DNA of 64,000 nucleotides from Psilocybe cubensis (lineage: Eukaryota), in contig CM039004.1 in assembly GCA_017499595.2 (NCBI GenBank), positions 3,410,001-3,474,000 of the forward strand, written 5' to 3'. The notes under the pieces are model-generated. The model saw nothing but the letters and a program-made list of their open reading frames with translations. It was not told the DNA's origin and ran no database searches. Of this stretch, positions 23,281-57,882 are shown in pieces. Each line of letters starts with the position of its first letter. Positions within the stretch are counted from its first letter, which is position 1. A program made the translations under genes and the position numbers.

Positions 23281-23312
23281 AGGGTTTAGGGTTTAGGGTT
23301 TAGGGTTTAGGG
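23281..23312 (+). repeat. Interstitial telomeric repeats (TTTAGGG)4; attachment site of retroelement copy 1
   Basis: AGGG(TTTAGGG)4 read directly. Confidence 0.95.
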
Positions 23313-23378
23313 TGGGAGCGAGCACCGAGCGAAGCGAGGTGCGAGCGACTTGTTTAAACTGTGAGTTAAATGGAAAGA

Positions 23379-23443
23379 AGCCAGAGGGCTGTTTGGGGGT
23401 ACAAACGGCCAGCCCTTTCGTCTTTATAGACTCTTCAGTGGCT
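23379..23443 (-). ncRNA. Type I hammerhead ribozyme (copy 1)
   Basis: Minus strand: AGCCA CUGAAGA GUC-UAUAAA-GAC GAAA GGGCUG-loop-CAGCCC UC^UGGCU. The complete core and three stems are present; the predicted cut is between 23384 and 23383. Confidence 0.9.
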
Positions 23444-23978
23444 ATTCTTAGAAGGAATGTTCTGGAACATCCGATGACAGCGCGTGAAGTGATGCTGCGC
23501 AGCTGTCATGTATCTTACCGACTATCACAAATCTGTCAATGTTTATTGTCAAGTTAGACAGGTCTCTGATGAACAGAGTGTCACGGGTCAATGTGGCACA
23601 TGGTAACCTGTCAAAAGTGGATCCAACACTTTTGTTCTTTGACATCGTGGGTTATTGACTGTGATGTGAATCACATGGATATAGAGTACTCTGGTTACGT
23701 GGCTCCGAGTAACCGCGACATGGGAATATTCACATGTCTAGAGTATAAATAGCTTACCTAAGTCCTTACCTAACAATCAATTGATTGATTGTTGTGAATC
23801 TTAATTGGACAGTTCATGATCCGGTCCATCAAAAATGTTTCCACGGTACTAAGGAACTTTTCCCGAAGTACTAAGTAACTTTTCCCATGTACTAAATTAG
23901 ATCCGGCCCTTCACAATCACATGCCGTTCGGAAGTTCACACGCCTACCTTACTTCCTACTAAGGTTAGACTTAGTTAG

Positions 23979-24040
23979 CTTAGGGTTGGGGTTAGGTTAG
24001 GGCTTAGGGTTTAGGGTTTAGGGTTTAGGTTTAGGTTTAG
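23979..24040 (+). repeat. Telomere-like tract inside the retroelement 3' UTR
   Basis: TTAGGGTTGGGGTTAGGTTAGGGCTTAGGG(TTTAGGG)2TTTAGG; also at ~28397, ~29857 and ~62383. Confidence 0.9.
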
Positions 24041-24152
24041 CTATTTAATCCAATGTGTTGCTTGTAAGTAGATGTTTGTTACTTTATAGCAAGGAATACT
24101 TACGGTTAGGGTTTTTTTCTAATGCTTTACGCCTTACGCGCTAGTATTCTTT

Positions 24153-27100
24153 TCATCGGTTGTAAGATTTGGATATTCTGCCGAATTCTGGATGTTCCCT
24201 CTCTTGTGAGATTGAATGTCTATGAAGTATTATCTCGTTATCGCTTTCGATACTTATCTGTTCAGCAGCTTCAACTAGAGCAGAATGATAAGTTTCATTG
24301 ACGTTTTGAGTTTCGGGAACAACACCACCTTTTTCGGCAATGTCTTCATCCAGTTTACGAAAAACTGTTTTCTTCCACACATTTGCAAGGTCGAAAAGAT
24401 TAGTATTGCGTTTTCGCGATACTATCCAACGACTTCCGAGTAGTCCTATCTTCCTCAAATCCGGTACGAACTCAGTTTCTCCGTCCACGAGGATCTGTGT
24501 GAACAGCTCCGGGCGAACATCATCGAGGTCGTGAACGTAATTTGGGTCTGGTTTGATAAGGGGTTTGGACGGGTCTGCATTATACAGACCTTTCTCGGCA
24601 TGTTCATACCATGCCGACCAATACTCGGTAACAGTTTTTCCAAGTTCAGCAGCTGAAAACCAATTCCATACCTGGTCAAATCTGGTTTTAAGTACAAGAA
24701 TGGATTTGTCGTGCTCTGCGATTCGTAAAGCGAATCGCTTTTCCCAACGTTCTTGTATATTCTTCTTACACCAAGACATTACTAGGTTTTCGGGATAACC
24801 GCGCACCAAATAGAGAGCGTTAAGGTCTCTAATTGCTCCGATGTAGATTTCCTTAGTACTACACAACACGGCTAGCCTGGATAACTCTCCAATGTAAACG
24901 CCACGTTTGACGTCCAAAGGATGATGTGATACCCATGGAACTCGTTCTCGGTTGTTTCCTGTCTTGACAAATGGCTTCCAATGAAGTTTTCCAGACTCCT
25001 TGAAAATGAAAGCATCGAGAAATTGACATCCCGACGAGGAAACAGCCCATTCGATAACACAACCATCGAACTTTATTGTTTCTTTAATAAGATTAAGTGC
25101 AAGTGCTTCGGACTCGGCGTAAACAATTGCGAAACAATCGTCGATGTACCTTCCATAGAAGGCCACGTTTGGGTGGTCTAAGATTTTTGACATTATTTCA
25201 AAATGGGCTCCAAAGAGGTTAGCAAGGTCCGGGGAATCCGCGACGCCCATTGCAAGGCCATTTTTTTGTCTAAAATATCTAGACCCATGTTGTGTTATCA
25301 ATTGCGTATTGCCAATCTCGATAGCACGTTTAAAGATGCCCAATTTAACCAAGTTATTCTCTAACGAATTTGGATTAATATGGGCTAATGCAGTATTTTC
25401 TTCCGAAGCGTTGAGTAACCATTCCTCGTACATACTACAAACGATGTCAATGCACGAGTCCAACGGGATATTGGGATAGAAAGCAACTACATCTCCAGTG
25501 ACAAAATACCATTGTCTTTTGGAGTCTATACGCAATTGGCTTAATCTCGTAAAGAGATCCTTCGTTCCGTGAATGATTGAAGGAGTCGATTTAATAATCG
25601 GCTTAAGCTCTTTTGATACAAACTTGGCTGCAGGATTAAATACTACAGAGTGACACGGAATTATGGGCCTAAATCCAGTAGGTTTCTTGTGGATTTTAGG
25701 TATACCATGAAATTGAGGATACTTGAACGATGATCCGTCTTCCGGTACATTCGATAGAAAGAATCGAGACAGCCCAAGTTCATAAAGAAACAGATGTTCA
25801 TCTTCGACAGTACGTGCGAGAGTTTGCATCTGGATCATTTTGCTCTTCATAACTTCTTGCGCAACTTCAAATTCTAACTCTTCGTAGTTACGTTCATCTT
25901 CAAGAAGATTGAGCTCATTCCTTAATATCCAGTCGCGTTCAGACACCGCGAGGCCAAGATTCTTATCTGTCATCGTAATAACATAGTTGTTATCGATAAG
26001 AAACTTACGGATCTTGTCCCTTTTAGGAGAGAACGCGTGCTTTCGCATCTCCGTAAGGGCTTCTTCCTGGATACTTGCGATCGTGCGTTGCACGTACCGA
26101 CGTCCCATCGAAAGGCCAAGTTCCATATATTGCGGTAATACTGGAGGTTTCTCCTTTTTCTTAGAGCTTACTCCATAATCTGGATCAAAAGGTTTGTTCA
26201 TGCCTTCCTTAAACAAAAAATAGATACGCCATCTTATTCTTCGTTGAAAATCGTTCCATGCTTGCATGATCAGACTTTGAGAAGGCAGAGTAAAAAACAT
26301 ATAATTGAGTCCGAGCGACAAATCATTTGCTATATCTACAGGGACCACCACACCAGGACTACAAGGTACACTACTACGATACTGGCCAGCCAACAAGAAT
26401 GAGATCGGCGTATGTAAGTGTACAAAAGAAACTGCGTCTGTTTTAGTCATGGTGAGTATATCGTCAGGAATAGAGTTGGGGAAGGCGGGTCTTACCGACG
26501 TAAAAGGTACTACATTAGACCGCGCGTCTAGGCTCTTGCCTTTCCCTTTCCCTTTGGATTGTTCTTGACGGGAGCTCTCCCCTTCCCTTTCTTCTTGTTG
26601 TCGACCTTGTTGGAAGCCTTGGTTTGGGGCTTCCTCTGCGAAGGCGTCGACGACGACTTGGGTTTCGAAGGGCCAGCTTTCTTGGCCTGAGGTTGAGGAG
26701 CCTTGGACGAATTCTGGCCAGACAAAGTCTGGGTAATTAGAATAGTAATTAGTATCCAAAATTATGGGTGAAGGGTTACGAGAACTTGCCTTCTTGCCCA
26801 CAGATCCAAGGTTGAGCTTCTTGAGACGTGCATTCAAGCCCTTATCAATAAGGGATTGAATCGATGGACCTGGTTTGGTCGCATCGGCCATCTCGACATC
26901 GGCTGTTGCCGCAGTCGACCGCTTTTTCTCAATCTTGATTGCCAAAGCGCGGTGGCGCAAGTTGACAATCTGTTTGATATGAGAGAAGATGGCTGGCAAA
27001 ATGGTTTGCAATGCGCTGCATTCAGCCTTCTTCTGCGGTGACACTACCCAATCTGTTATTCGACGAACTCCCTTGTTGTCTGTAGAGAAAACGGGGAGCT

Positions 27101-27683
27101 TATAGCTGGATTTGCGATCATCGTAAGTTGTCTTAACGATGAGGGCAGCAGCTTCATAACAGTTATTGAGTGCGCATTTATCATCCCAAAAGGCCAGTTC
27201 GTCCTTTTTCGCCTGGATGGCGCCGTCATTAATCGCCTTTTGGAAGACGTCACGAGCGGTGGAGAACGTAGAGGAGACTCGAAGAGCCTCCGCTGACCCG
27301 GCATCCGCGAATTCCTTCGTGAGTTGGAACTCGGGAGCCTTCACCCGAAGGCGATTGGGGGTGTTGCCTGCGCTAACGGCAAGTTCAAGGCGCTCAAGGC
27401 TAGCCTTGACTGTTTCCCTCTTGTCGCACCACGATGCGAGGTTGAGGAGAAACTCCCTAAGGGCAGCACGATAGTCAAAAAAGACGCAGTCTACGATCTG
27501 GTCAATGGAGCGGCACTCAGCTATTTTTTTGATGACGACAGTGGCCAACTCGTCGATGAGGGCGTTGTGGCGGCCAGCTTCGTCGTTGACGCCAAAGACT
27601 GTATTGTTGACGACAGCCTGGGTGAGTGCGTCCAGGGTGGGGGACATGGCACGAGAGAAGGCAGCAGAGTAAGTGGAAGACAT
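24153..27683 (-). CDS. ORF1-reverse transcriptase fusion (Penelope-like RT, no endonuclease), 1176 aa
   Basis: RT motifs DKNLG, GIPKIHK..GFRPII, TGDVVAFYPNIP, QKNGLAMGVADSPDLANLF, YGRYIDD and FLD, plus PLE C-terminal SHHP..KRG...ELSRL...RGYP. The N-terminus is helical or coiled-coil. Confidence 0.93.
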   Translation of the reverse strand: MSSTYSAAFSRAMSPTLDALTQAVVNNTVFGVNDEAGRHNALIDELATVVIKKIAECRSIDQIVDCVFFDYRAALREFLLNLASWCDKRETVKASLERLELAVSAGNTPNRLRVKAPEFQLTKEFADAGSAEALRVSSTFSTARDVFQKAINDGAIQAKKDELAFWDDKCALNNCYEAAALIVKTTYDDRKSSYKLPVFSTDNKGVRRITDWVVSPQKKAECSALQTILPAIFSHIKQIVNLRHRALAIKIEKKRSTAATADVEMADATKPGPSIQSLIDKGLNARLKKLNLGSVGKKASSRNPSPIILDTNYYSNYPDFVWPEFVQGSSTSGQESWPFETQVVVDAFAEEAPNQGFQQGRQQEEREGESSRQEQSKGKGKGKSLDARSNVVPFTSVRPAFPNSIPDDILTMTKTDAVSFVHLHTPISFLLAGQYRSSVPCSPGVVVPVDIANDLSLGLNYMFFTLPSQSLIMQAWNDFQRRIRWRIYFLFKEGMNKPFDPDYGVSSKKKEKPPVLPQYMELGLSMGRRYVQRTIASIQEEALTEMRKHAFSPKRDKIRKFLIDNNYVITMTDKNLGLAVSERDWILRNELNLLEDERNYEELEFEVAQEVMKSKMIQMQTLARTVEDEHLFLYELGLSRFFLSNVPEDGSSFKYPQFHGIPKIHKKPTGFRPIIPCHSVVFNPAAKFVSKELKPIIKSTPSIIHGTKDLFTRLSQLRIDSKRQWYFVTGDVVAFYPNIPLDSCIDIVCSMYEEWLLNASEENTALAHINPNSLENNLVKLGIFKRAIEIGNTQLITQHGSRYFRQKNGLAMGVADSPDLANLFGAHFEIMSKILDHPNVAFYGRYIDDCFAIVYAESEALALNLIKETIKFDGCVIEWAVSSSGCQFLDAFIFKESGKLHWKPFVKTGNNRERVPWVSHHPLDVKRGVYIGELSRLAVLCSTKEIYIGAIRDLNALYLVRGYPENLVMSWCKKNIQERWEKRFALRIAEHDKSILVLKTRFDQVWNWFSAAELGKTVTEYWSAWYEHAEKGLYNADPSKPLIKPDPNYVHDLDDVRPELFTQILVDGETEFVPDLRKIGLLGSRWIVSRKRNTNLFDLANVWKKTVFRKLDEDIAEKGGVVPETQNVNETYHSALVEAAEQISIESDNEIILHRHSISQEREHPEFGRISKSYNR
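26528..27683 (-). CDS. Predicted spliced ORF1 protein (~364 aa) with Lys-rich tail
   Basis: Removing intron 26729-26789 (AAG|GCAAGT...CTAAT..CCAG) joins ..GSVGKK in frame to TLSGQNSSKAPQPQAKK...KGKGKARA*. Confidence 0.65.
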
Positions 27684-27715
27684 AGTAGCTGTTGGGTAAT
27701 AGCAAAGTCAAGTGG

Positions 27716-29147: not shown

Positions 29148-29181
29148 GGGTTTTATAGGGTTTAGGGTTTAGGGTTTAGGG
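29147..29181 (+). repeat. Telomeric cap on truncated copy 2 and attachment site of copy 3
   Basis: AGGGTTTTATAGGG(TTTAGGG)3. Confidence 0.9.
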
Positions 29182-31020
29182 GGGGAGCGAGCACCGAGCG
29201 AAGCGAGGTGCGAGCGACTAGTTTAAACTGTGAGTTAAATGGAAAGTAGCCAGAGGGCTGTTGATTGATATCAGCAGCCAGCCCTTTCGTCTTTATAGAC
29301 TCTTCAGTGGCTATTCTTAGAAGGAATGTTCTGGAACATCCGATGACAGCGCGTGAAGTGATGCTGCGCAGCTGTCATGTATCTTACCGACTATCACAAA
29401 TCTGTCAATGTTTATTGTCAAGTTAGACAGGTCTCTGATGAACAGAGTGTCACGGGTCGATGTGGCACATGGTAACCTGTCAAAAGTGGATCCAACACTT
29501 TTGTTCTTTGACATCGTGGGTTATTAACTGTGATGTGAATCACATGGATATAGAGTACTCTGGTTACGTGGCTCCGAGTAACCGCGACATGGGAGTATTC
29601 TCATGTCAAGAGTATAAATAGCTTACCTGGGTCCTTACCTAACAATCAAACAATAGAATGATTGATTGTTGTGAATCTTAATTGGACAGTTCATGATCCG
29701 GTCCATCAAAAATGTTTCCACGGTACTAAGGAACTTTTCCCGAAGTACTAAGTAACTTTTCCCATGTACTAAATTAGATCCGGCCCTTCACAATCACATG
29801 CCGTTCGGAAGTTCACACGCCTACCTTACTTCCTACTAAGGTTAGACTTAGTTAGCTTAGGGTTGGGGTTAGGTTAGGGTTTAGGGTTTAGGGTTTAGGG
29901 TTTAGGTTTAGCTATTTAATCCAATGTGTTGCTTGTAAGTAGATGTTTGTTACTTTATAGCAATGAATACTTACGGTTAGGGTTTTTTTCTAATGCTTTA
30001 CGCCTTACGCGCTAGTATTCTTTTCATCGGTTGTAAGATTTGGATATTCTGCCGAATTCTGGATGTTCCCTCTCTTGTGAGATTGAACGTCTATGAAGTA
30101 TTATCTCGTTATCACTTTCGATACTTATCTGCTCAGCAGCTTCAACTAAAGCAGAATGATAAGTTTCATTAACGTTTTGAGTTTCGGGAACAACACCACC
30201 TTTTTCAGCGATGTCTTCATCCAGTTTACGAAAGACTGTTTTCTTCCACACATTTGCAAGGTCGAAAAGATTAGTATTGCGCTTTCGCGATACTATCCAA
30301 CGACTTCCGAGTAGTCCTATCTTCCTCAAATCCGGTACGAACTCAGTTTCTCCGTCCACGAGGATCTGTGTGAACAGCTCCGGGCGAACATCATCGAGGT
30401 CGTGAACGTAATTTGGATCTGGTTTGATAAGGGGTCTGGACGAGTCTGCACTATACAGACCTTTCTCGGCATGTTCATACCATGCCGACCAGTACTCGGT
30501 AACAGTTTTTCCAAGTTCAGCAGCTGAAAACCAATTCCATACCTGGTCAAATCTGGTTTTAAGTACAAGAATGGATTCGTCGTGCTCTGCAATTCGTAAA
30601 GCGAATCGCTTTTCCCAACGTTCTTGTATATTCTTCTTACACCAAGACATTACTAGGTTTTTGGGATAGCCGCGCACCAAATAGAGAGCGTTAAGGTCTC
30701 TAATTGCTCCTATGTAGATTTCCTTAGTACTACACAACACGGCTAGCCTGGATAACTCTCCAATGTAAACGCCACGTTTGACGTCCAAAGGATGATGTGA
30801 TACCCATGGAACTCGTTCTCGGTTGTTTCCTGTCTTGACAAATGGCTTCCAATGAAGTTTTCCAGACTCCTTGAAAATGAAAGCATCGAGAAATTGACAT
30901 CCCGACGAGGAAACAGCCCATTCGATAACACAACCATCGAACTTTATTGTTTCTTTAATAAGATTAAGTGCAAGTGCTTCGGACTCGGCGTAAACAATTG
31001 CGAAACAATCGTCGATGTAC
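29182..31020 (-). mobile_element. Coprina-type element copy 3, 5'-truncated at the YIDD motif
   Basis: 3' UTR plus RT C-terminus; homology ends at GTCGATGTAC(CT), where the X module begins. Confidence 0.9.
29247..29313 (-). ncRNA. Type I hammerhead ribozyme (copy 3, variant loop III)
   Basis: Core conserved, stem I UAGCCA/UGGCUA, different stem III loop. Confidence 0.88.
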
Positions 31021-31195
31021 CTAAGCTTATTCCCCCCCGAAGGGGGGGCCTTCGTTGCATTGGGTCTCCTGTGCAGAATTCCTGAAATCTGATGCCAGAT
31101 TCGGATTCCTCGACCTTAAAAACCCCCAAATCCACTTTTAAAATATTTTATTTTGTACATACAGAGGTGCTATGTAATTAAATGTGTATTTTACC

Positions 31196-31363
31196 GAGGC
31201 CGGCCTCCAAATTGATGGAGGTCACTGGAGGCCGGCCTCCGTCTAAAAATAATTTTTGACAGGCACTGGAGGCCGGCCTCCGTCTAAAAATAAATTTTGA
31301 CAGGCACTGGAGGCCGGCCTCCGTCTAAAAATAAACGCGTCGAGGCCACCTGAGGCCGGCCTC
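31196..31363. repeat. 41-bp-periodic array of the palindrome GGAGGCCGGCCTCC
   Basis: Palindromes at 31227, 31268 and 31309, with 12-bp versions at 31196 and 31352. The same array occurs at 45127-45254 and 58256-58423. Confidence 0.92.
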
Positions 31364-32779
31364 GATTCGTATGTGCGTCGTACGCGCGAGTGGAGGCGGA
31401 CTCCAGCGTGGGTCCCAACCAGATAGGTCACGTGAGTATACGCGCGTCGTTGTTTGTTCACTGCTCGTCGCCGCCTGTCGCTGCCCCCACCTTCGCTCGC
31501 TGCCCACAACGACACAGACATTGCTGCGTGTCGTTGCACCGCCACCCCTGCGCCTCTGCTGCCGCTGCCGCTGCCGCCGACTCCCCCACCCCGCCGCCGC
31601 CGCCTTAGCTCGCCGCCCACAACAACACGCAGCAGAGAAAGCGTTTGTGTTTGTTTGTGTTTGCTCACACTATCCCTACCTGCTGCGTATCGTTGCGCCA
31701 CCGCCGCCGACGTTTGAATTCTCTCGTCGATTCATTCTCAGTCCTTTTTCCTTCTTTCTTGACGAATGTCTTAAGTCTGACTGACAGATGTCACAGCAGC
31801 TCTGTCCTTATTTGCAGTCTCCCTTTCCTTAATCAATCTCTCACGTTTGCACAACTCGCGGTGCGTGATTTTTATTGCAACTCAATCCCCTGTTTCGACT
31901 TGAGATGTGCATCAGCCATCCGCGTCAAGGTGCAGTCACATATTCTCGACAGTCACTCACCTTTACATATACTAGGAATCAGCTCAATCCGAGTTGTCAC
32001 TGGGCAACAAATGTACACAACTCACAAAGCAGCAGCGGCGGCGAGGTTGAAGAGAGTGATACAGTGCTGCATCGGGTATGACAGGTGGCCTGCGGTTGAG
32101 AAAACGTGGTACGTTAGCACCGTTCTGCTCATTGACACCGTTTCTGCTTACCTTCACTCCCTCTCCTCCTTTATGTTTACAGTAGGCAACAGGCGGCCTG
32201 CGGTTGATAAACATGGTGCGTCAGCGCTGTTTCATTCATCAGGGGCGCCGCCTCTTACCTTCACGCCCTCCTCTATCTGTGCAGCCCGCAACGGCTGCGC
32301 TGCTGATGACACCCATGGTTCTGCTCACCTTGCTTCTCCACGAAGTCGTCACAATTCCGCTCTCAAACGCGGCGCATACTTTGCTGGGCTCCTCTTGTCC
32401 AACACTGGCCGGAGCTGTATTGTTCAGTGAGTCCTTCTCCTATTGTCATCCAATTCAGACATGATGGACTCACCACTGTATTCCAGCCCTCTCAGGGCGG
32501 CACAGACACGACACTGGAATGAAGAAAAGAGGTGAGTGTGCTGCTTGGAACTGTCCAACCCGCATACTCACCTTGCCGCTTCAGGTAGGCACAAAACAAC
32601 TCTCAAGCGCGGCACATGCTCTGTCAAGAGGTGAGTACTATTCCTTTTTGTATCCAACGCGGTTGCTCACCTAGCTGTCCGCAGCGTCGCTCGTCGCCGG
32701 CTGGTTCAAAAACTCGGGTGGTTGGTGTACAGCTCAGAAGCGGGCACACATGTCTGCATGGAAGGTGTTGGAGACATCG

Positions 32780-33300
32780 TGCAGGAGGGAGGGTCAGCGT
32801 TGGGCAGTACGGCACAACGGCAAACTCACGTTCTTTACATGAAGAGCGCATAGGATGGGCTGAAGAGATGTGAAGAGGGCATACCATGATGGCTCGCTGG
32901 CAGCCGAAATGCAATGGACGCTCTCTCTGACAGCTGGTCTACAGCAACTCGCCGTCGGGCTGGATGGAGGGTCAGCCTTGGGCAGGACAATTACAATGGC
33001 AAACTCACGTTCTTTGCGTGCGTTTGCATGAAGAGCGCGTCGGATGGGCTGATGGAATATGGAGCGGGCATACCACGATGACGAGATGATTCGCTGGCAG
33101 CCGAAATGCGACGGGTCGGTTTACAACAACTCGCTGTCGGGCTGGATGGAGGGTCAGTGTTGGGCTGGACGTCACTACAGCACACTCACGTTCTTTGCGT
33201 GCGTTTGCATGGTCGCTGTGTGCTGTGGAACGTATCAGGTGGGTTGGAAGGATGCGGTTACTATCACGGCGGGATGATTTGCTGGCAGCAAGAGTGCGTT
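32780..33300 (-). repeat. About three ~180-bp exon-intron repeats of a probable minus-strand gene or pseudogene in X
   Basis: Repeated CTCACGTTCTTT...GCTGGCAGCCGAAATGC...GGAGGGTCAG gives minus-strand GTGAG donors and CTGAC branch sites. A minus-strand TATAAAA lies at ~33440. Confidence 0.55.
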
Positions 33301-34764
33301 GGACGCGCCGTGTCGAGCTGCGGAGGTTGGTCGATGGGTGGTGGTTGTAGTGTCAAGACCACGAGGGCAGGAGGAGAGTAGAGGAGGAGAAAACCCAGGA
33401 GTGGGTTGATGTCAAACAGGTATTACCCACCTCGCTTTTATACCACCCGTCTCATGTAACCCGTTACGTGTTTTTTTCCGCAATGCCAAAAAAATAGAAC
33501 TATCTTCTATTCGACCGAAGGACAACGCAAATATACTGAACGAAATGATGCCGACATGTGCTAGTATTGATGGGTTTTACAACTTCCGTTGTGTAAACGA
33601 CATGTCGAGTTGAGGTCGCCGCTGTTCTCAGAACTGGAATCGAGATTGTGGAGTGGTTGGTATGTTGTGCTTTTGAATTTATCATTTTGCAAGTTTACTC
33701 AATGTTTACGTTCATTGTAAGACACATATTCTGTGAGTTTTAATGCATTTTGTAATACATTGTTTCCGAGTATCTTGCTCGATGGTATGCAAGGTATCAA
33801 TTCTTTTCTACAAAACCTATAATACTCGTACTATGCAATCCGCAGATATCGCATTTCTGTACGTATCCTCCAGGTTATATTCAAGCCAAGGATCCATCTT
33901 GACATGATTCTGACGTTCTGAGCTAGCGGGTGACATTACTCGCACTTGAATATGTTCTGGAATCGTTATGTTTCGGTGAACAACGAGGACCCGGAATGGG
34001 TTGTTTCAAACGGTGAGTTTTGTAAATCCATTTGCTCTTTGCAAATACCTGGGATTTGAAACCTTGGATGGTAAATTTTGGAAGGTGCAGAGCGTGTGGT
34101 AGATAGAATGCGGTGAGTATCGAGGCTTTATTTACAAACAATGTTGTTTCCGACACGTTCAAGGCCACCGGCGCTTAATATGTGTTGATTACAGATTTCA
34201 ATGTACTTCGATTCCTGAAAGATTTGAAGGACTCGACTTTTCAGGAATTATTCATGAGGTCATTATACCCCTAATCAAAGTAGAACGCGGAGTAATGATG
34301 AATTAGGGCACGAGGAGAGCGTTTGCGCCATGGTTGACATACCATGCTACACTGGGGATACGTTGTAATAGAGGTGAAATGTTACCGTAAATCACCTCTT
34401 CAATATTCACATGGAGGTCATGGCACGTCTACATAACCAAAACGTTAGATAATAAATGTGGTACGTCAGAGTACTCACCTTGACATTGCTGTAAAGATAT
34501 GGTTTCGGGAATACTCAAATCTAGCGACTCCTGAATCCCCAATGCACTAGTCCATTTCATTCAAAGCCAAAGAGTATGGACAGGCAAGACGAGATGTTTT
34601 GGTCCAGTGGGACACTGCAGGCCTGCATTTGAATAAAGTAAAAAGTTTCAAACACTTTTGAGTGAGTCTGTGAGATTAATGGCAACAAGAATTCAAAGAA
34701 CCTACTGGTATAAATATATCCAACACTACTCGCAAAGTTGAAACCCCGCTGGTGTTGTCGTGAA

Positions 34765-34975
34765 TACACCACAAAACACATATTAGCCTTGGTTGGGGTT
34801 AGGGATTAGGGTTGGTGGTGACCACAAAAATACAGATTAGGATGGTTTAGGGTTTAGTTTTTAGGGTTGGTTGGGATTCGATATACCACAAAAGCACAGA
34901 TTAGTCCGGTTAGGGTTGGTTAGCATTGGTTAGGGTTGGTAATTACAATTACATATTTAGCTGGTTAGGATTGGA
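34765..34975 (+). repeat. Degenerate interstitial telomere-like tract
   Basis: Paralogue of 4855-5045. Confidence 0.75.
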
Positions 34976-43900: not shown

Positions 43901-44952
43901 ATGTTGGACGGGAGTGCTCACCATTGCCACTCATACTGTCATCTTGCTGTTCAACATCCATTGTGTCAGCACACACGGCTGGTATTGACAAGGTGGTGGT
44001 TGCCTTCAAACCGAGTCAGCATTCGAGCGCGTTGGATAGGTTGTGCTTACAGGTATCACCTCTGGACTTCCATGTGAGCGGAAATGAGGGCGATTGAGGC
44101 GGCGTCATCAGGAGCGGGCAAGCGAGACAGATGTTGGTAGAGGGGAGATCCTAATGTTAACACCCGCCGGTACCGTTCTAGACATCATGCAGCGTACTCA
44201 CCGAGAACAGGCTTCATACATTGCCGAGACTCTGTGGAGGTGCGCGTGGTTCTAGTACGCCCATTACATGTCGTAAGTCAGCCAAATATACAGTTTTTTT
44301 TTCTGCCTCGCTTGTTAGTTTCAATTTTGTTATGCGCCTGTTGGGCCGATTTTCCGTTTGTGTTGAATCTGCATTTCTGAAGGCACTGTGCTTTCCGTTT
44401 GCGTGATGTTGTGTTTGAAGATTGACTGGATTAAACCCAGCATTGAGTGACGTGCATGTTGCATCCTTCAGTCTTCGTGGGCTAACAACACTCAACAGAA
44501 GCATTTAATGCATACACACAAGTGTACAGATACAGATAAGTATTGTACAAGCTATGTTTAAAGCTTGTAATTTGTTGTATACGCCTTGATAATCAAAATT
44601 ACCCAAAGCGCGGATATCAAAATCTCAACATATCTTAATCAATCTCTCAAAATTTTACGAATATTTCTCACTTGGGAACTCGTACGTACTGAGCAACATA
44701 CACCTAAAACACCCAGTTCACGAAATCGATGCAGAAATGGCGTTCTAGCACTCCCGGTGTGCGGACAATTGTCCTGGAGTTGACCCAGCAAATCCATCTT
44801 CTGAGCAGCAACAAATGAACGCCGCTGCTTCAGCTAGTCGATCTGCGGTTATGGATAGCCAAGGGTTCTCGAGCTAGTGTCATGTCGGAGCCGAAGTAGA
44901 AGAATGCGATTGAAATGGGGTGGAATGCTGATTTGGGAGAGGAGGAGCAGAT

Positions 44953-45720
44953 CTAAGCTTATTCCCCCCCGAAGGGGGGGCCTTCGTTGCATTGGGCCTC
45001 CTGTTCAGAAATCCTGAAATCTGATGCCAGATTCGGATTCCTTGACCCCGAAAACCCCCAAATCAACTTTTAAAATATTTTATTTTGTACATACGGAGGT
45101 GCTACATAATTAAACATGTAATTTATGGAGGCCGGCCTCCAAATTGATGGAGGCCACTGGAGGCCGGCCTCCGTCTAAAAATAACTTTTGACAGGCACTG
45201 GAGGCCGGCCTCCGTCTAAAAATAAACAGTGACAGGCACTGGAGGCCGGCCTCCCGCCTGTCTCACCACCCCCGACGCATGCGCTCGCTGTCCCAATGCC
45301 TGCGCTCGCTGTCCCAACACTCGCGCTCGCTATCCCGACACTCGCACTCGCCGCTGCGTGTCTTTGCACTGCCACCTCCGGGCCGCTGCTGCTGCCACCA
45401 CCTCCACTCGCCGCCTGTTGCTGCCGCCTCCGCCTCCATTTGCAGCCTCTCTCTGCCGCCGCGCCGCCTTCCCACCGGCAACGTACGGCGAGTTGTTTGT
45501 CCATGCTGTTGTCATTTCATTCAAACTCCGCCTTTACAATTGACTCCTGACGCGCACCGCAGCGACAATATTATAACCCGCCTTCGCTCGTTGCCCACAA
45601 CGACACACACATTGTTGCGTGTTGTTGCGCCACCACCCCCGCGACTCCTCCACCGCCGCCGCCTTCGCTCGCCGCCCACAACAACATGCAGCCGAGAAAG
45701 CGTTCGTGTTTGTTTGTGCT
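44953..45720. mobile_element. X module copy B terminus (diverged variant)
   Basis: Same terminus, C7-GAA-G7 hairpin and palindromes at 45127, 45159, 45200 and 45241; patchy homology to 31480-31660 continues to ~45720. Confidence 0.75.
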
Positions 45721-47294
45721 TGCTTATGGCCTTGTGCGCCGCGTTTTTTTGCTTGACTTTTACCTCACGCACACGTTTCTCGTCAAGCGTCGTGAGCTTG
45801 CAACAGTATTCAGGTGCAACATTTTCTGTACACTGTAACCACAGCTAATTGTGGACAGACACCCGTGGTTCCTCTCAGTGATATTCACAACATTTTTGGA
45901 AGACGGTCGAGGCCTCAGACATGCGACGCACAACATCGCTAACATGCACCCCACAGAGATCGTGCATAGGCAGGCCGACTCGCAGAATCCCATGTCATTT
46001 TGCGCGTTAAACTTACCATCATTTGACGTGTCAACACCGTCTTGAACATTTCCAGCAACCTTCGTATCAACCCCACACGCTGTCAGTTGTCATGGTGGAT
46101 GGGTTGAAAGGACATCCTGTCAAGGTGCGTCGTCAGCGGTCTGTGTATCATAGGAGCCCTGACTCACGGAAATCACACCTTGTCTGTGCAGCGAGAAGCG
46201 GAGTAAGTAGCAGCACGTTGTTGGGTGGGTGCAACTCACCGTTACGGACTCACCTCAGCATCAAACAATGCACCAGCATCCACGTCCTCTCTCAACTCCA
46301 AACGACTTGGATGGGGAGGGTGGTGTACAACCACTGGAGGGGGGTCAGTCATTCAAACAGCATGCACTGCACCCTGTTACTCACCATTCTTTTCCCATCC
46401 TTCCAACATCCTCCAACCTTGTTTTGCCCTTCTGTTGTTACCAGCCAATCGCACCTTGGGCTCGAGACGGCGGCGCTGCGATGAGAGTTCAAACCACGGG
46501 AAAGATCTAGGACAACAGTGTCATGTGAGTAAGACCCTTTCTCTTTTTTGCTCACTTACCTTCGTTTCCTTTCCACTGTCCTGCCTCGTCCACCTTTCAC
46601 ACATCGCACATTGCCCTTTGCTGCCATCTTGCCCTCTCTGCAATAAGGCATGCCAGTCAACGCTTTGTAACACTCACACTCATTGTTTATCTCTCTTTGC
46701 CATAGCTCCACCCACCACTATCCAAAAGCGACCCCAATTGCACAGCGAGCAAGATGGATACTATCCGCACTGTAGGAAAACTGACACAGAGCATCATTTT
46801 TCATCTCAACACTGTAAATCTCACTCACTCACCTTTTTTCCGGTTCTCCGTGTTGCACGCCGCTAGGATCATCTCTGCTTCAACATCAAGACTATTGATA
46901 CTAAATGGTGCGCTTACCGTCGACGTAACAGGAGTTCCTGGTTGCAACCATCTCATACAGCAAAACTCACTCTGTCTCGACGACAACGGTCAGCTTAGAG
47001 TCAGATCCATGGCCGTTCAAAGTTATACCAACCATAACGATGAATCGGCTGGACACTGGTGCGTGCAACACCGTTATAAATCGGAATCTGATGCCTTGTT
47101 CAATAGTGATGGCTTCACTGCGGTGCTCGAGGGATCAGTCCGACATCCCGCCCAAGATATCACACTCACCATGCCGTGCGTCAAGCCTACCCGCTATGAT
47201 GACTAGTGGTCTCGCATGTTGTCCGCCAGTCATTCGTAGTGCCCCTTACATGTCCGTTGCTGTCAGCATCTCGCCGTGGTGAATCAAAAGGCTA

Positions 47295-50527: not shown

Positions 50528-51280
50528 TGATGAGCCGTGGTCGGTTGCGCGCGCGGAAACGTTTCGAACACAAGTCCATTCTCCCACGATATGCCGTGTC
50601 ACATGTTCAATCTCCGACATTTCGCAAAGCACCCGCTCTGGCAATATCGCCCACACAAGCTTATCGTCGTGCACATAGAATGTTCAAGAAACAGTATGCC
50701 CCACCTATTCTCCCTTTTTATTGGCCTAGACTCGCGTACTGCACTGTTGAGTCAGCTATCGGCATCTTGGCACCGTTTCCCACGACTTTGATCGGACACT
50801 GACACCTCTTGACCTCCTCATCCTCCTGAGAAAACCAAGCGCCAAACACTCATTTCCTTTTCGTTCCACTTGAAACTTTGATATACCATTTCGTTCCATA
50901 TGCTACGCCTTCTAGAATTTTTATACATTTTTCTTGGCTGTTTCAGAGTTGCTATGGCTAGATTACTATAAATTCAGGTGTAGTAGCTAGCTAGAAAAAA
51001 AAACAACCCATTGGTTCGCTCCCCTCTTCTCGTTTACCATCTGATATTCATAACCTCTCGTATATATCGTTTCGCGCTCGAATTTCGTGTCGTTATCTCG
51101 CCCCAGAGTGGTTCGAAGTCCTTGAGTGGCTTACACTCTGTTACTAGTCAAATTGTGGTTAGAGGTCTTTGTGGAAGCGCATCTCGCCATTACGCACCTT
51201 CTACGAAGTGTTGGGTGTTTCCCAGTGGTCTCAACTTCTTTTGGTTCTGCTCCGCACCTCACACGCTCGTAGGCGTATCA
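50528..51280 (+). repeat. 5' LTR (~753 bp, TG...CA)
   Basis: Matches 57883-58083 over its first ~200 bp. Ends ..GTATCA followed by TTTTGGAGCCCACCGCGAGGG at the PBS position. The 3' boundary is inferred. Confidence 0.8.
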
Positions 51281-51494
51281 TTTTGGAGCCCACCGCGAGG
51301 GTGCTTCAATAACCATTGCAGCTTCAACCACAGCCCGTATTACTCGCTCACAAACGCTACGAGACGAGCTCATCTCGGCGTTCCAAAACCCCGACGATCT
51401 TACCGACGACTCTTTCTTTGTTGAGGTACCCGACGTCGACGCTACACACAACAATCTCCCTATCCTCACTTCCCCTCTCTTCACTTCTTCTCAA

Positions 51495-53879
51495 TTGCCC
51501 TCGCCACTTCATTCTCCATCGTCTTCGGTATTGTCCATTACTGCTTATTTTTCTGCACTCAATATCAACCCCAACATCTCCGTAACATCACCATCACCTC
51601 CAACCACCATGACCACTCGAATGCCTGCTCGTGGCGATCGCAGTGCGCCCACCTTCGACCACACTAAGCCTAGAGAGCTCAAGCGATACTTCTCCGAGCT
51701 GGAGTTCCTATTCTCAGCTGCAGCAGTCACCTTGGATGCGGAGAAAAAGCAACACACCACTCGTTATGTCAGTATTGAGGTCGCAGACATATGGGAAACC
51801 TTGCCAGAGTTCTCAGACCCCACCAAGACTTATGTGGACTTCAAGAAAGCCATTCAAGAGCTCTACCCAGCTGCGGATGAAGAATATAGGTACACTATGG
51901 CGGACATGGATTTGTTAATTGGAAATCGTCAGCGCTTAGGCATTCACTCACTCGGAGACCTAGCCGACTACCATTCGCAATTTCTGGCAATCACCAAATT
52001 CCTTATTTCGCGTCAACGCCTCTCAGAGATTGAGCAAAAGCGTGCTTACATTCGTGGTTTTCCTCCAGAGCTTTGGGCGAAGGTATCTCAACGTCTACAG
52101 CTCAAATTCCTTGACCATCTCCCCGACGAACCCTATGATATCTCAGACGTGCAAGCTGCAGCTCGTTTTGTGCTTCATGGCACACATTCTATCGCTTCTT
52201 CGCTTCCAGCAACCTCTGCAGGCTCGTCTCCAGCAATAGTCCCATTGGAAGGCATCGTCAAGACGGAGCAGCTTGGGTCTATCTTTACAGAGTTCACCAA
52301 GTCGATTCTTGAGGCTATCAATGCAACTTCACAACGCTCACGCTTCCCTGCGTCTTCTGATGCGACTCCTCGCGATGTGAAGTGTAATTTCTGTGGTCGG
52401 GATCACTATATTCGCAATTGCGAGTTAGTGGACGAATATATTCGTGCTGGCAAGGCTAAGCGCAATATTGAGGGAAAGGTAGTCTTACCTACAGGTGCTT
52501 TCGTTCCACGCGAGATTACTGGGTCTCTGTTGAAAGAGCGCATTGATGAATGGCACAGACGCAATCCTGGACAGCTAGCGGCAGCCACAGTCTCGTCCAA
52601 CATGCTTGGCGCAGTTCAGTGCAGTCCCAATGCTTCCAGTGCGTTGTCTCCACATCAAGCGGCTTATCAGTTCACAGCTGATGACCGCATCGCGCTGCTT
52701 GAAGCAGAACTCTTTAGTCTTCGTGCACGGCGCCCTGACTTCTCTCCTACTGTTCGCACCCGTGCCCAGAAGATACGCGACATGGAGCAGGCCGCAAACG
52801 ATGAAGCGCTGCGTGCGGATGCAGCTGGTACTCGTCCTAACCCGCCAGCATCAACACCGGATCCCCAAGAGTCTCAGAACGTTTCCAAGTCCACAAATCA
52901 AGCTGTTCCACCTCCTCCTCCATCTCAGCCTGAAAAAGAGCCAGATCACCCGTTTTGCAACGCCCGAGATGCAAATTATTTGCCACCGCTTCATCGCAAC
53001 CTTGCTGCGCAACCAAAAACCGTTCCAAAGAAGGCAGAGCCCGCGTACCGCACCGCTGCACCAATACAAGATGCAGAAGTCGTTTCTACCGTCTATAACC
53101 GCTCCCTTGATGCTCCAGTTACGCTCACGCAGCGGGAATTGCTCTCAATTGCCCCAGACATTCGTGCACATTACAAAGATGCGACTACTGCCAAGCGCAC
53201 ACCTACCACCGACTCTACACTCCAAACAAACATATTAGAGGGTCAACACATGCAACAGCGTACTCAAAAGGCTTACCAGTCCATGCCAGTCGCCGTTGCT
53301 CTCGCAGCAAGCCAACATCGCAGTCCTCCTGAAGGTGCAACCATTGTAGACGATCCTTTTGAGCAGTACTATCGCTCGCTGCGTCCAGGAGAAGAGCCCG
53401 ATCCGACTCGACTTGCTGTTGCTAAGGAATCTGCGGCGCTTCGTTCTATTTTTCCCATCGTAGACAACAACCTTAAGGTTGAATGCATCTTGGATCCCGG
53501 GAGCCAAATCATTGCAATGTCCGAGGAAGTCTGCCACGCGCTGTCTCTTATTTATGACCCCACAATCACGCTCAATATGCAGTCTGCAAATGGAACAGTT
53601 GATAAGTCATTAGGTCTCGCACGCAATGTCCCTTTCCGCATTGGGGATCTCACCTTGTATATGCAAGTTCACGTTATTCGTGCGCCTGCGTACGATATCT
53701 TGCTTGGCAGACCGTTTGACATCTTGACTGAGAGTGTTGTGCGCAATTTCCGCAATGAAGACCAGACAATTACTGTAGCAGACCCCAACTCGGGTCAGGT
53801 AGTCACTATACCCACTGTACCAAGAGGATCACCACGCTTTGCCTGTCGCCACTCGGATTTTCACGGAACGAGGATCTAG
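51495..53879 (+). CDS. gag: Gag-protease (likely start ATG 51609, MTTRMP)
   Basis: Zinc knuckle CNFCGRDHYIRNC; aspartic protease ILDPGSQI...DILLGRPF. Confidence 0.9.
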   Translation: MPSPLHSPSSSVLSITAYFSALNINPNISVTSPSPPTTMTTRMPARGDRSAPTFDHTKPRELKRYFSELEFLFSAAAVTLDAEKKQHTTRYVSIEVADIWETLPEFSDPTKTYVDFKKAIQELYPAADEEYRYTMADMDLLIGNRQRLGIHSLGDLADYHSQFLAITKFLISRQRLSEIEQKRAYIRGFPPELWAKVSQRLQLKFLDHLPDEPYDISDVQAAARFVLHGTHSIASSLPATSAGSSPAIVPLEGIVKTEQLGSIFTEFTKSILEAINATSQRSRFPASSDATPRDVKCNFCGRDHYIRNCELVDEYIRAGKAKRNIEGKVVLPTGAFVPREITGSLLKERIDEWHRRNPGQLAAATVSSNMLGAVQCSPNASSALSPHQAAYQFTADDRIALLEAELFSLRARRPDFSPTVRTRAQKIRDMEQAANDEALRADAAGTRPNPPASTPDPQESQNVSKSTNQAVPPPPPSQPEKEPDHPFCNARDANYLPPLHRNLAAQPKTVPKKAEPAYRTAAPIQDAEVVSTVYNRSLDAPVTLTQRELLSIAPDIRAHYKDATTAKRTPTTDSTLQTNILEGQHMQQRTQKAYQSMPVAVALAASQHRSPPEGATIVDDPFEQYYRSLRPGEEPDPTRLAVAKESAALRSIFPIVDNNLKVECILDPGSQIIAMSEEVCHALSLIYDPTITLNMQSANGTVDKSLGLARNVPFRIGDLTLYMQVHVIRAPAYDILLGRPFDILTESVVRNFRNEDQTITVADPNSGQVVTIPTVPRGSPRFACRHSDFHGTRI

Positions 53880-56800: not shown

Positions 56801-57559
56801 TCAGGCTACAATTCGCGTGCCAATGGAATCGTGGAGCGTGCACACTTTGACGTGCGGCAGGCTATCTTCAAGGTGACGGACGGCGATATATCTTTATGGA
56901 AACAGTTTATACACTTCGTCTTTTGGGCAGAACGTGTAACCGCAAGACGTCGCATGGGATGTTCGCCATATTTCGCTCTCATGGGCACTCAACCACTCAT
57001 TCCTCTTGATATCAGCGAAGCAACCTACCTTCTTCCGCCTCCCGAATCGGTTCTCTCCACCACTGAACTCATTGCTCGTCGTGCACTCGCTCTTTCGAAA
57101 CGGCAAGAAGACCTCCAACGCCTCTACTCTAAGGTGTATGAAGCACGTCGCAAGGCTGCTGTGCGCTTTGAAAGAGAGCATGCCCACCAGATCCGTAGCT
57201 ATGAATTCAAGCTCGGTGATCTTGTCCTCATCCGCAACACACGCATTGCAAAGTCACTTAATCGCAAGATGCGCACGCGATATTTAGGTCCTCTTATCGT
57301 CATCTCTCGCAATTGAGGTGGAGCTTATATTCTGTCCGAGCTCGACGGCACACTTCTTGATCGGCCTATTGCTGCATTCCGAGTTATTCCATATTTTGCT
57401 CGTCGAACTTTGGACTTGCCGCCTCTTGATGAATTACTCGATGTTTCGCAGCACCGCCTACATGAGCTTGAGGATACTTCAGCGCCCGACCCTGAGGACG
57501 TTGAGGACGTTGAGGATGCTGATGCCGACGAAGAAGACCCAGAGGAAGAGGAAGAGTAA
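53855..57559 (+). CDS. pol: Pol (RT, RNase H, integrase) in the -1 frame, with a premature stop at 57314-57316
   Basis: LDLFVGY, LPMGWTNS, YIDD, RNase H VDTS..YSQPKLELYG, integrase HDDVGH..CHIC, TDNG and NGIVERAH. The frame continues past the TGA (GGAYILSELDG..) to TAA at 57557-57559. Confidence 0.9.
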
Positions 57560-57868
57560 TGGCAGCCTTGATTTAAGTAGGGAGGAGTTCCCTGCCTCCA
57601 AACTACATTTCACTATTGGCCATGACCTTTTCACCGTTCCCTCATCACTTCCACATCCAGTGCTTCCCATCTATTTATTCCCAAAATCACCATAACCCCA
57701 ACTCACTTCAAAACATAAATCATGTCTTTCCTTTCTTTCCTAATCTATGTATTTGTCAACACCCCTTCCTATTTTGCCCTAATACATGCCAGTCCCATGC
57801 ATTCGACTCTCAGTACACATTCTATGAATATCCTTTACGATACAACTGACTGGGGACAGTCAGAAGTT

Positions 57869-57882
57869 AAGTAGGGAGGAGA
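57869..57882 (+). other. Polypurine tract
   Basis: AAGTAGGGAGGAGA immediately before the 3' LTR. Confidence 0.85.

What the first reader, a model, noticed from the sequence alone, without database searches (positions are those of the whole stretch)
31021..31363. X module: an unclassified fixed-end element joined one-sidedly onto truncated subtelomeric DNA
Seen: the terminus CTAAGCTTATT-C7-GAA-G7 occurs three times (31021, 44953, 58081), always in the same orientation. At 31021 it cuts a retroelement mid-RT with CT microhomology. At 58081 it cuts an LTR with CTA microhomology. The remainders of those two targets do not reappear in the window, and I found no inverted partner end, TSD or encoded enzyme. 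Inference: X is appended to chromosome ends rather than inserted, as a second end-extension module (conceptually like yeast Y'). It may be a non-autonomous passenger of the Coprina RT, or it may arise from rolling-circle or one-ended transposition.
Basis: partly seen in the sequence, partly recalled or inferred. Interest (0 to 1): 0.85.

Follow-up and report, generated by a model that had tools for sequence, protein, structure and literature searches.

The report
Fixed-end hairpin module at chromosome end
A gene-less DNA module that always starts at the same base, next to a small G/C hairpin, is joined three times onto cut-off sequences near a mushroom chromosome end; it looks like a second way of extending worn chromosome ends, but it could also be the tail of a rolling-circle transposon.

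Summary
The 28-mer CTAAGCTTATT-C7-GAA-G7 occurs exactly three times, all on the + strand. Each copy abuts a different truncated sequence: a Coprina-like retroelement, a dispersed repeat and a Ty3-type 3' LTR. There are 2 and 3 nt of junction overlap at the two testable junctions, and the missing target halves are nowhere in the window.

New facts:
- The window is a chromosome-end stack with the telomere to the right: TTTAGGG 31 times on +, its complement 0.
- X1 and X3 are 99.83% identical over 3,584 bp. X2 shares only the first 302 bp plus a block of about 170 bp.
- X3 is cut short and capped by (TTTAGGG)6 followed by a Coprina copy.
- The hairpin sits 11 nt from the terminus, as in Helitron 3' ends, but the CTRR end and the AT target are not met.
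- No enzyme, inverted partner, ribozyme or likeness to the Coprina 3' end was found.

Best reading (about 0.45): X is copied onto uncapped ends by microhomology priming, probably by the resident reverse transcriptase. Main rival (about 0.3): a Helitron-type element whose far sides were lost. No genome was available, so copy number, the second end and empty sites remain untested.

The parts
31021..31048 (+). X terminus (11 nt) plus 17-nt C7-GAA-G7 hairpin, copy X1. Identical 28-mers lie at 44953-44980 and 58081-58108.
   Evidence: the hairpin is predicted to fold on either strand
31021..34766 (+). X1, the longest copy. It is shared with X3 up to 34603. The right limit is taken as the base before a telomere-like module that is also present at 4853.
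31223..31335 (+). 41-bp tandem repeat (2.8 copies) in the X head. Each unit carries the 14-bp palindrome GGAGGCCGGCCTCC. X2 has 2.4 copies at 45155-45254.
   Evidence: fold z-score -8.8
31486..31665 (+). Second block conserved between X1 and X2 (45577-45724, 74%). The homology ends near 31780 / 45790.
44953..45790 (+). X2 head: the same terminus, 93% identity over 302 bp, then an insertion of about 170 bp and the second conserved block. The body that follows (to about 50527) is unrelated to X1.
58081..61663 (+). X3, 99.83% identical to X1 and cut short at 61663.
61664..61713 (+). Irregular start, then (TTTAGGG)x6, capping the truncated X3. A Coprina-like copy (to 64000) follows directly.
29156..31022 (-). 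Coprina-like retroelement copy. It is preceded by (TAGGGTT)x3.7 and cut in its RT reading frame at junction 1.
44870..44952 (+). Copy of a dispersed repeat of about 100 bp, cut short at junction 2. Other copies lie at 49296-49403, 4590-4697 and 21166-21275 (minus).
50528..58083 (+). Ty3-type LTR retrotransposon (gag, protease, RT-RNase H, integrase). Its 3' LTR, preceded by a polypurine tract, is cut after 201 bp at junction 3.
23281..27713 (-). Full-length Coprina-like element with an intact 1184-aa ORF (24153-27707): the only reverse transcriptase near X apart from the Ty3 one. On the + strand (AGGGTTT)x4.7 precedes its 3' end.
34767..34975 (+). Telomere-like module (three units of ACCACAAAANACAGATTAG plus degenerate TTAGGG-type repeats) that follows X1. 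It is 92% identical to 4853-5042.

Best explanation
X is a non-coding module with one defined end, and it is copied onto chromosome ends that have lost their telomere repeats.

Proposed steps:
1. The end erodes or breaks into whatever lies there: a Coprina copy, a repeat or a Ty3 LTR.
2. Its 3' end (...CCT or ...CCTA on the + strand) pairs through 2-4 nt with the very end of an X template. If the template is RNA, it is the minus-strand transcript ending ...GGGGGGGAAUAAGCUUAG-3', with a stable C7-UUC-G7 hairpin 11 nt from its end.
3. A polymerase copies the template outwards. The likeliest one is the reverse transcriptase of the resident endonuclease-less Coprina-like element, acting in trans or by template switching.
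4. Copying stops at a variable point. Telomerase caps the new end, and Coprina copies can attach again.

Shown: the fixed end, the truncated and non-resuming flanks, the junction overlaps, the common orientation, and the telomere cap on X3.

Inferred: that the joins were made at free ends, that the template is RNA, and which polymerase acts.
For: - The fixed terminus has three different left flanks.
- All three flanks are truncated repeats, and the two testable remainders are absent.
- The overlaps are 2 nt (CT) and 3 nt (CTA) at 2 of 2 testable junctions. By my own arithmetic the chance is about 1/16 x 1/64.
- The chromosome end lies to the right: 31 TTTAGGG on +, 0 of the complement. The fixed end of X is on the centromere side in 3 of 3 copies, as is the 3' end of every Coprina copy.
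- X3 stops inside X sequence at a GT-rich site and is followed by telomere repeats and then a Coprina copy. X was therefore once the physical end.
- An intact 1184-aa ORF lies 3.3 kb from X1. It is 97-98% identical to proteins that their sources name Psilocybe cubensis hypothetical / reverse transcriptase domain protein. TDKNLG and YIDD are invariant in 15 relatives.
- A conserved head with different bodies fits subfamilies that share a recognition tail.
- No enzyme is encoded in X.
Against: - There are only three copies, and two of them are 99.83% identical, so there are effectively two lineages.
- X shares nothing with the Coprina 3' region: local alignment score 23, against a shuffle mean of 20.5 and a maximum of 27.
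- X has no telomere-complement repeats and no hammerhead or other Rfam match.
- Nothing shows that a minus-strand RNA exists or what would set its 3' end. There is no poly(A) trace at any junction.
- Intron-like signals lie on both strands, 7 on plus and 9 on minus, so the transcribed strand is unknown.
- X1 is followed not by fresh telomere repeats but by a diverged telomere-like module and about 10 kb of unassigned DNA that has a paralogue at 4853-6088. Terminal copying of X does not explain this.
- The hairpin 11 nt from the end is what a Helitron 3' end looks like.
- No genome, reads or related loci could be examined.
Confidence: 0.45

Rival explanations
1. X is the 3' end, read on the minus strand, of a non-autonomous Helitron-type rolling-circle transposon. 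It inserted into a Coprina copy, a repeat and a Ty3 LTR. In each case the far side of the element and the rest of the target were later lost by terminal breakage and healing in this unstable chromosome end.
For: - On the minus strand there is a 17-nt G/C hairpin (7-bp stem, 3-nt loop), then 11 nt, then the end. The papers give the canonical geometry as a 16-20 nt hairpin 10-12 nt from the 3' end (passages seen in PMC5148889 and PMC4289320).
- The end reads ...CTTAG, which is close to CTAG/CTTG. Pleurotus Helitrons end in CT[A/T]G (PMC4289320).
- There are no terminal inverted repeats and no enzyme, and the interiors are interchangeable behind a conserved end.
- X3 was demonstrably broken and healed at 61663, so loss of the distal side is plausible.
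- Helitrons are common in Agaricales (PMC4289320).
Against: - The end is not CTRR.
- The base after the end is G, A and G, not T. Neither uninterrupted target has an AT at the join (CCT|TCC and CCTA|GAC).
- Rep-mediated insertion does not predict the 2- and 3-nt overlaps.
- It needs a chance orientation (3 of 3) and loss of the distal junction for every copy.
- No Rep/helicase fragment was found among the ORFs scanned.
- The 5' TC end cannot be looked for, because no copy has a second end.
Confidence: 0.3
2. X is the 5' (initiation) end of a Helitron2-like or other HUH-nickase element, read on the + strand. Either one-ended rolling-circle events, or a nick at this end that becomes a DNA end, yield a strand that always starts at the terminus and runs on for a variable length. 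Host end-joining then captures that strand at uncapped chromosome ends.
For: - The + strand hairpin has a GAA loop closed by C:G, as do the 5' hairpins of Fusarium FoHeli1 and FoHeli2 (...GCC GAA GGC......TCC GAA GGA...; passage seen in PMC5148889).
- In rolling-circle elements the fixed end of one-ended products is the initiation end (recalled for IS91).
- This reading explains a fixed proximal end with different downstream contents, together with the junction overlaps and the orientation.
- The Coprina target is cut at T|T if X is taken to start at AAGCTT. Helitron2 elements insert at T(T/C) (passage seen in PMC13085455).
Against: - The hairpin is 11 nt from the end, not 2-3 nt as in FoHeli.
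- No asymmetric terminal inverted repeat was found anywhere in the window.
- The LTR target is T|A or A|G, not T|T.
- No Rep/helicase was found.
- Capture of such intermediates at chromosome ends is not a described process, so this stacks two hypotheses.
Confidence: 0.1
3. X is not mobile. It is a conserved subtelomeric block spread by break-induced replication, or by end fusion and breakage, between chromosome ends. Its edge would mark a special site, for example the former boundary with the telomere repeats of another chromosome end, since CTAA could be the last part of a CCCTAAA unit. A further possibility is that the junctions are assembly artefacts.
For: - The region is a mosaic of paralogous subtelomeric pieces: 34767-34975 = 4853-5042, 42190-42602 = 5656-6088, and 46299-46567 = 2564-2835.
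- (C)CTAA matches part of the C-strand telomere unit (read from the sequence).
- Microhomology-mediated repair gives 2-4 nt overlaps.
- Terminal duplication of internal sequences at unstable fungal telomeres is documented in Magnaporthe (passages seen in PMC7367193).
Against: - Erosion or strand invasion would not stop at the same base three times on three different flanks.
- No CCCTAAA unit is retained at any junction, and none exists in the window.
- Head-to-head fusion predicts inverted duplications, and none were seen.
- Mis-assemblies arise inside repeats, not at their exact edges. This could not be checked without reads.
Confidence: 0.15

Closest known systems
Canonical Helitron (Helitron1) 3' end, e.g. 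HELPO1/HELPO2 of Pleurotus ostreatus (PMC4289320)
   Same: On the minus strand X has a subterminal G/C hairpin of 17 nt, 11 nt from a fixed end. It has no terminal inverted repeats, no visible target duplication, and variable interiors behind a conserved end. It occurs in an Agaricales host.
   Different: The end is ...CTTAG, not CTRR. The flanking base is G/A/G, not T, and there is no AT at the uninterrupted target sites. The targets do not resume. The junctions show 2-3 nt overlaps. All copies have one orientation at a chromosome end. No Rep-helicase was seen.
Endonuclease-deficient Penelope-like elements Coprina/Athena (Gladyshev and Arkhipova 2007, recalled, not held; passages seen in PMC8557442 and PMC13159263)
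   Same: X shares their terminal position, a fixed centromere-side end, a variable distal truncation capped by telomere repeats, and their orientation. In this window X is stacked with such elements.
   Different: X has no RT ORF, no reverse-complement telomere repeats at its fixed end, no hammerhead motif and no sequence similarity to the resident element. It joins to non-telomeric sequence by microhomology, not to a telomere tract.
MoTeR2, the non-autonomous partner of MoTeR1 in Magnaporthe oryzae telomeres (PMC7367193, passages seen)
   Same: It is a fungal, non-coding telomere-associated element that depends on another element's RT, and it is found truncated and in arrays at chromosome ends.
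   Different: MoTeR2 shares its 3' border with MoTeR1 and sits within TTAGGG repeats. X shares nothing with the Coprina-like element and has no telomere unit at its junction.
Healing of broken or uncapped ends by retroelements: HeT-A on broken Drosophila chromosomes, and endonuclease-independent L1 insertion at dysfunctional mammalian telomeres (recalled, not read here)
   Same: The 3' end of a retroelement copy is attached directly to a non-telomeric DNA end, without target duplication, and with short junction homology in the L1 case.
   Different: Those elements end in poly(A) and are, or derive from, known LINEs. X has no A-tail, and its RNA form is hypothetical.
Yeast Y' subtelomeric element
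   Same: It is a repeated module found only next to telomeres, in a fixed orientation, and it can lengthen ends.
   Different: Y' is bounded by telomere tracts, spreads by homologous recombination through them, and encodes a helicase. X has none of these features.

Membership tests
Helitron (canonical, Helitron1) | 16-20 nt hairpin 10-12 nt upstream of the 3' end | tested here: met
   On the minus strand: CCCCCCCTTCGGGGGGG, then AATAAGCTTAG (11 nt), then the end. The criterion is taken from passages in PMC5148889 and PMC4289320.
Helitron (canonical, Helitron1) | 3' terminus CTRR (CT[A/T]G in Pleurotus) | tested here: not met
   The terminus reads ...GCTTAG in all 3 copies. It is one base away from CTAG/CTTG.
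Helitron (canonical, Helitron1) | Insertion into an AT dinucleotide, with T after the 3' end | tested here: not met
   The flanking bases are G, A and G. The uninterrupted targets read CCT|TCC and CCTA|GAC, with no AT at the join.
Helitron (canonical, Helitron1) | 5' TC end, with the flanking sequence continuing across the element | tested here: not met
   No copy has a second end. The Coprina and LTR remainders are absent from the window. Whether the 5' end itself exists cannot be tested without the genome.
Helitron (any) | A Rep-helicase-encoding autonomous copy with the same termini | not testable with these tools
   No genome is held. No such domain was found in the window ORFs scanned.
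Helitron2 / Helentron | Asymmetric terminal inverted repeat and a hairpin at each end | tested here: not met
   One hairpin with a GAA loop lies at the fixed end. No inverted match to the first 13-16 nt exists anywhere in the window. A second end may simply be missing.
Helitron2 / Helentron | Insertion at a T(T/C) dinucleotide | tested here: inconclusive
   If X starts at AAGCTT, the Coprina site is T|T and the LTR site is T|A, so 1 of 2 fits.
EN-deficient Penelope-like element (Coprina/Athena) | RT ORF with the DKN motif and no GIY-YIG domain | tested here: not met
   X has no such ORF. The neighbouring element R has one: TDKNLG and YIDD are invariant in 15 relatives.
EN-deficient Penelope-like element (Coprina/Athena) | Reverse-complement telomere repeats, with a hammerhead motif, at the 3' end | tested here: not met
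   There are none at the X terminus. R has the repeats and a sub-threshold hammerhead hit: 26.4 bits against a gathering score of 56.3.
EN-deficient Penelope-like element (Coprina/Athena) | Terminal position, 3' end towards the centromere, distal truncation capped by telomere repeats | tested here: met
   The orientation is as required in 3 of 3 copies. X3 is capped at 61663.
Non-autonomous partner of a telomeric retroelement (MoTeR2 type) | Shares the 3' border sequence with the autonomous element | tested here: not met
   X head against the R 3' region: score 23, with a shuffle mean of 20.5 and a maximum of 27.
TIR or LTR transposon | Matching second end and a target-site duplication | tested here: not met
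   There is no inverted or direct partner of the terminus.

The most novel reading that the evidence does not exclude
X is a new kind of chromosome-end parasite or helper. It would be a gene-less RNA module whose hairpin-bearing 3' end is used by an endonuclease-less Penelope-like reverse transcriptase (a relative of telomerase) to extend ends that have lost all telomere repeats. Priming would rest on 2-4 nt of chance homology instead of on telomere repeats. That would give the fungus a back-up route of end repair that works exactly where telomerase and Coprina cannot.
Probability: 0.3. Interest if true: 0.8.

Novelty: new variant of a known kind. Interest (0 to 1): 0.55.

Why it matters
Endonuclease-less Penelope-like elements are thought to attach only to telomeric overhangs, through their telomere-complement tails. 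A passenger that the same enzyme copies onto bare, non-telomeric ends would widen what these telomerase relatives can do. It would also be a fungal counterpart of HeT-A-type healing.

If X turns out to be a Helitron end, the point of interest is smaller: a non-canonical terminus and target, and Helitron pieces that serve as substrate for telomere healing.

Either way, the three base-exact junctions give precise PCR and long-read targets for deciding the question in a species with many sequenced strains.

Tried and rejected
Searches that found nothing or could not be run:
- Whole-genome search: no genome is held for this window.
- Two metagenome scans found 0 matches: one for the terminus (allowing C/G runs of 6-8) and one for the 26-nt palindromic repeat unit.
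- A protein-database search with the 149-aa head ORF found no hit at E <= 0.001 among 1,437 candidates. This gives no handle on copy number or on other species.
- Earlier findings of this scan held nothing for this genome or sequence. Word searches gave only one conceptual parallel and unrelated bacterial or mitochondrial hairpin elements.
- Rfam found 0 matches at gathering scores in the window. In X there were only three implausible sub-threshold hits.
- Pfam on the Coprina-like ORF and on a 97%-identical database protein gave 0 families in the local copy, even at E <= 5. A 15-sequence profile searched against PDB sequences gave nothing significant; the best RT hit had E 0.16. The RT call therefore rests on source names, the precomputed Pfam list and the invariant TDKNLG and YIDD motifs.
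- Gladyshev and Arkhipova 2007 is not held, so it is cited from recall and through PMC8557442.

Ideas considered and rejected or left open:
- HindIII (AAGCTT) ligation artefact: rejected, because neither uninterrupted target has the site at the join.
- Strand of transcription from intron-like signals: 7 on plus and 9 on minus in X1, so no call can be made. My first impression of plus-strand introns was withdrawn.
- A 55-bp similarity between X2's left flank and 49319-49373 looked like a resumed target. It is a dispersed repeat with four copies.
- Chimeric read-through element (X fused to the 3' half of Coprina and moved as one unit): this could explain junction 1 but not junctions 2 and 3.

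Supplementary files of the papers were not opened. Terminal sequences of Pleurotus and Fusarium Helitrons given there could bear on the Helitron comparison.

Full report
**1. The observation**

The 28-mer CTAAGCTTATT-C7-GAA-G7 lies at 31021, 44953 and 58081. All three are on the + strand and exact, and 100 shuffles gave none. In a three-way alignment the shared sequence starts exactly at CTAAGC, preceded by C, T and C.

Self-comparison of the window shows two kinds of copy:
- X1 (31020-34603) and X3 (58080-61663) are colinear over 3,584 bp. They differ by 6 transitions and no indel.
- X2 shares the first 302 bp at 93%. It then has an insertion of about 170 bp, then a second conserved block (31486-31665 = 45577-45724, 74%). 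After about 45790 it is unrelated.

So 'X' is a conserved head of about 750 bp in front of different bodies.

**2. The setting**

- An intact 1184-aa ORF on the minus strand (24153-27707) is 97-98% identical to proteins that their sources name Psilocybe cubensis hypothetical or reverse-transcriptase-domain proteins. The window therefore probably comes from that species or a close relative.
- The local Pfam copy finds nothing in this ORF, and a profile search of PDB sequences gave nothing significant.
- TDKNLG and YIDD are invariant in 15 relatives. DKN is named as a Penelope-like hallmark in PMC13159263.
- There is no endonuclease domain. On the + strand each copy's 3' end is preceded by TTTAGGG units. 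A sub-threshold hammerhead hit lies near that end.

This is the anatomy of a Coprina-type, endonuclease-less Penelope-like element (passages in PMC8557442).

TTTAGGG occurs 31 times on the + strand and its complement never, so the chromosome end lies to the right. The window is a stack of former ends: telomere tracts or remnants lie at about 4853-5042, 23281, 27716, 29156, 34767-34975 and 61671.

**3. The junctions**

- *Junction 1.* Two uninterrupted Coprina copies read ...GATGTACCT|TCCATAG. The copy at 29156-31022 reads ...GATGTACCT|AAGCTT. The overlap with X's CTAAGC is CT, or CCT.
- *Junction 3.* The element at 50528-58083 is a Ty3-type retrotransposon. Its 3' LTR follows a polypurine tract and matches the 5' LTR for 201 bp. 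The 5' LTR goes on ...GGCCTA|GACTC and the 3' LTR goes on ...GGCCTA|AGCTT, so the overlap is CTA, or CCTA.
- *Junction 2.* The 80 bp to the left of X2 belong to a dispersed repeat with three other copies in the window. That repeat is cut short by X2. The overlap cannot be scored there.

The remainder of the Coprina copy matches only the uninterrupted copy at the window's end, and the LTR remainder matches nothing.

By my own arithmetic, overlaps of at least 2 and at least 3 nt have a joint chance of about 1 in 1,000.

Coprina-to-Coprina junctions always contain at least one telomere unit. X junctions contain none.

**4. The far side**

- X3 ends at ...GATGTTTTGGT, where X1 continues. It is followed by TTTGGTTTTTAGGG(TTTAGGG)n and then a Coprina copy. 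X3 was therefore once the physical end of the chromosome, healed by telomerase at a GT-rich site.
- X1 runs on to about 34766. There a 210-bp telomere-like module begins that is 92% identical to one at 4853-5042 and has the same left edge. About 10 kb of unassigned DNA follows, with weak paralogy to 5486-6088.

**5. What X contains**

- No enzyme was found. I scanned 54 of the 61 ORFs of 85 aa or more between 31021 and 50527; 7 ORFs in overlapping frames were not scanned. I also scanned all 115 ORFs of 55-84 aa. None gave a transposase, Rep-helicase, RT or recombinase family.
- No inverted partner of the terminus was found.
- There was no Rfam family at gathering score, and only implausible weak hits.
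- The head holds the hairpin, a 41-bp tandem repeat carrying the 14-bp palindrome GGAGGCCGGCCTCC (fold z-score -8.8), and a GC-rich conserved block.
- Intron-like signals occur on both strands, 7 and 9, so the transcribed strand is open.
- X's head has no similarity to the Coprina 3' region.

**6. Explanations**

*Appended to uncapped ends.* A discrete template with a defined end is needed, because erosion or strand invasion would not stop at the same base on three different flanks. The reading that accounts for most facts is that X is copied onto ends that have lost their telomere repeats, primed by 2-4 nt of pairing with the very end of the template. This explains:
- the orientation (3 of 3);
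- the non-resuming targets (2 of 2 testable, and also junction 2);
- the overlaps;
- the lack of telomere units at X junctions;
- the capped truncation of X3.

If the template is RNA, it is the minus strand ending ...AAGCUUAG, with a C7-UUC-G7 hairpin 11 nt from its end. The obvious enzyme is the resident endonuclease-less RT, which works at chromosome ends. None of this last step is shown. X also lacks the tail that Coprina uses, which counts against simple mimicry.

*Helitron-type element.* This is the main rival. On the minus strand, the size of the hairpin and its 11-nt distance from the end are the textbook Helitron 3' geometry (passages in PMC5148889 and PMC4289320). Conserved ends with interchangeable interiors and no enzyme are typical of non-autonomous Helitrons. 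Against it:
- the end is CTTAG, not CTRR;
- the flank is G/A/G, not T;
- the targets have no AT at the join;
- the overlaps are unexplained;
- every copy must have lost its far junction.

*Helitron2-like 5' end.* A plus-strand variant draws on the GAA-loop hairpins at Fusarium Helitron 5' ends and on one-ended rolling-circle logic. It has no inverted partner and stacks hypotheses.

*Recombinational spread, end fusion or mis-assembly.* These fit the fixed end poorly.

**7. Verdict**

The decisive data could not be reached: no genome is held, two metagenome scans were empty, and the head ORF has no database relatives. Those data are genome-wide copies, strain comparison, long reads and a minus-strand RNA. 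I rate the finding a new variant of a known kind, either way.

Noticed in passing
window 23281-23313, 29156-29181, 61671-61713, and inside the retroelement at 23997-24040: The telomere-type repeat here is the 7-mer TTTAGGG (31 on +, 0 of the complement), not the TTAGGG usual in fungi. Whether this is the organism's real telomere unit could not be checked.
   Followed up: partly
window 4853-5042 and 34767-34975: A telomere-like module of about 200 bp: three units of ACCACAAAANACAGATTAG plus degenerate TTAGGG-type repeats. It occurs twice at 92% identity with the same left edge but different left flanks, so it is a second 'fixed-edge' module in this chromosome end.
   Followed up: partly
window 23379-23463 (-) and 27789-27873 (-): Hammerhead-ribozyme-like hits near the 3' end of the Coprina-like element. 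They score 26.4 bits against a gathering score of 56.3, so they are below threshold, but they lie where Penelope-like elements carry such motifs.
   Followed up: no
window 27700-27720: The full-length Coprina-like copy is joined to the next copy through a single TTTAGGG unit. The copy at 27714-29147 is a 5'-truncated 1.4-kb repeat of the 3' part.
   Followed up: partly
window 14745-18390 (-): A Kyakuja-Dileera-Zisupton transposase (KDZ, E 3e-40) with a CxC2 cysteine cluster (E 4e-40), split over several frames. It is probably a decayed or intron-bearing DNA transposon gene.
   Followed up: no
window 50528-58083: A young Ty3-type retrotransposon with gag/DUF4100, aspartic protease, RT-RNase H and integrase zinc domain. 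Its LTRs are 99.5% identical over the 201 bp that remain.
   Followed up: partly
window 44870-44952, 49296-49403, 4590-4697, 21166-21275 (-): A dispersed repeat of about 100 bp (core ...GCGATTGAAATG.GCTGGAATGC...GGAGGAGGA...) of unknown nature. One copy is cut by X2.
   Followed up: partly
window 32080-32320, 36920-37200, 1480-2200: A short unit containing GGCGGCCTGCGGTTGA followed by an intron-like stretch recurs in the X1 body and in two other subtelomeric pieces. X1 also has a 178-bp tandem repeat at 32777-33211.
   Followed up: no
window 18548-19363 and 7460-7746: Tandem arrays with periods of 91/135 bp and 104 bp, rich in GATGGATAAT-type motifs, lie next to the KDZ region.
   Followed up: no
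window 38193-38372 (+): A weak zf-BED-like match (E 0.0085, below the cut-off) in the unassigned 10 kb between X1 and X2. It may be a relic of a hAT-type transposon.
   Followed up: no
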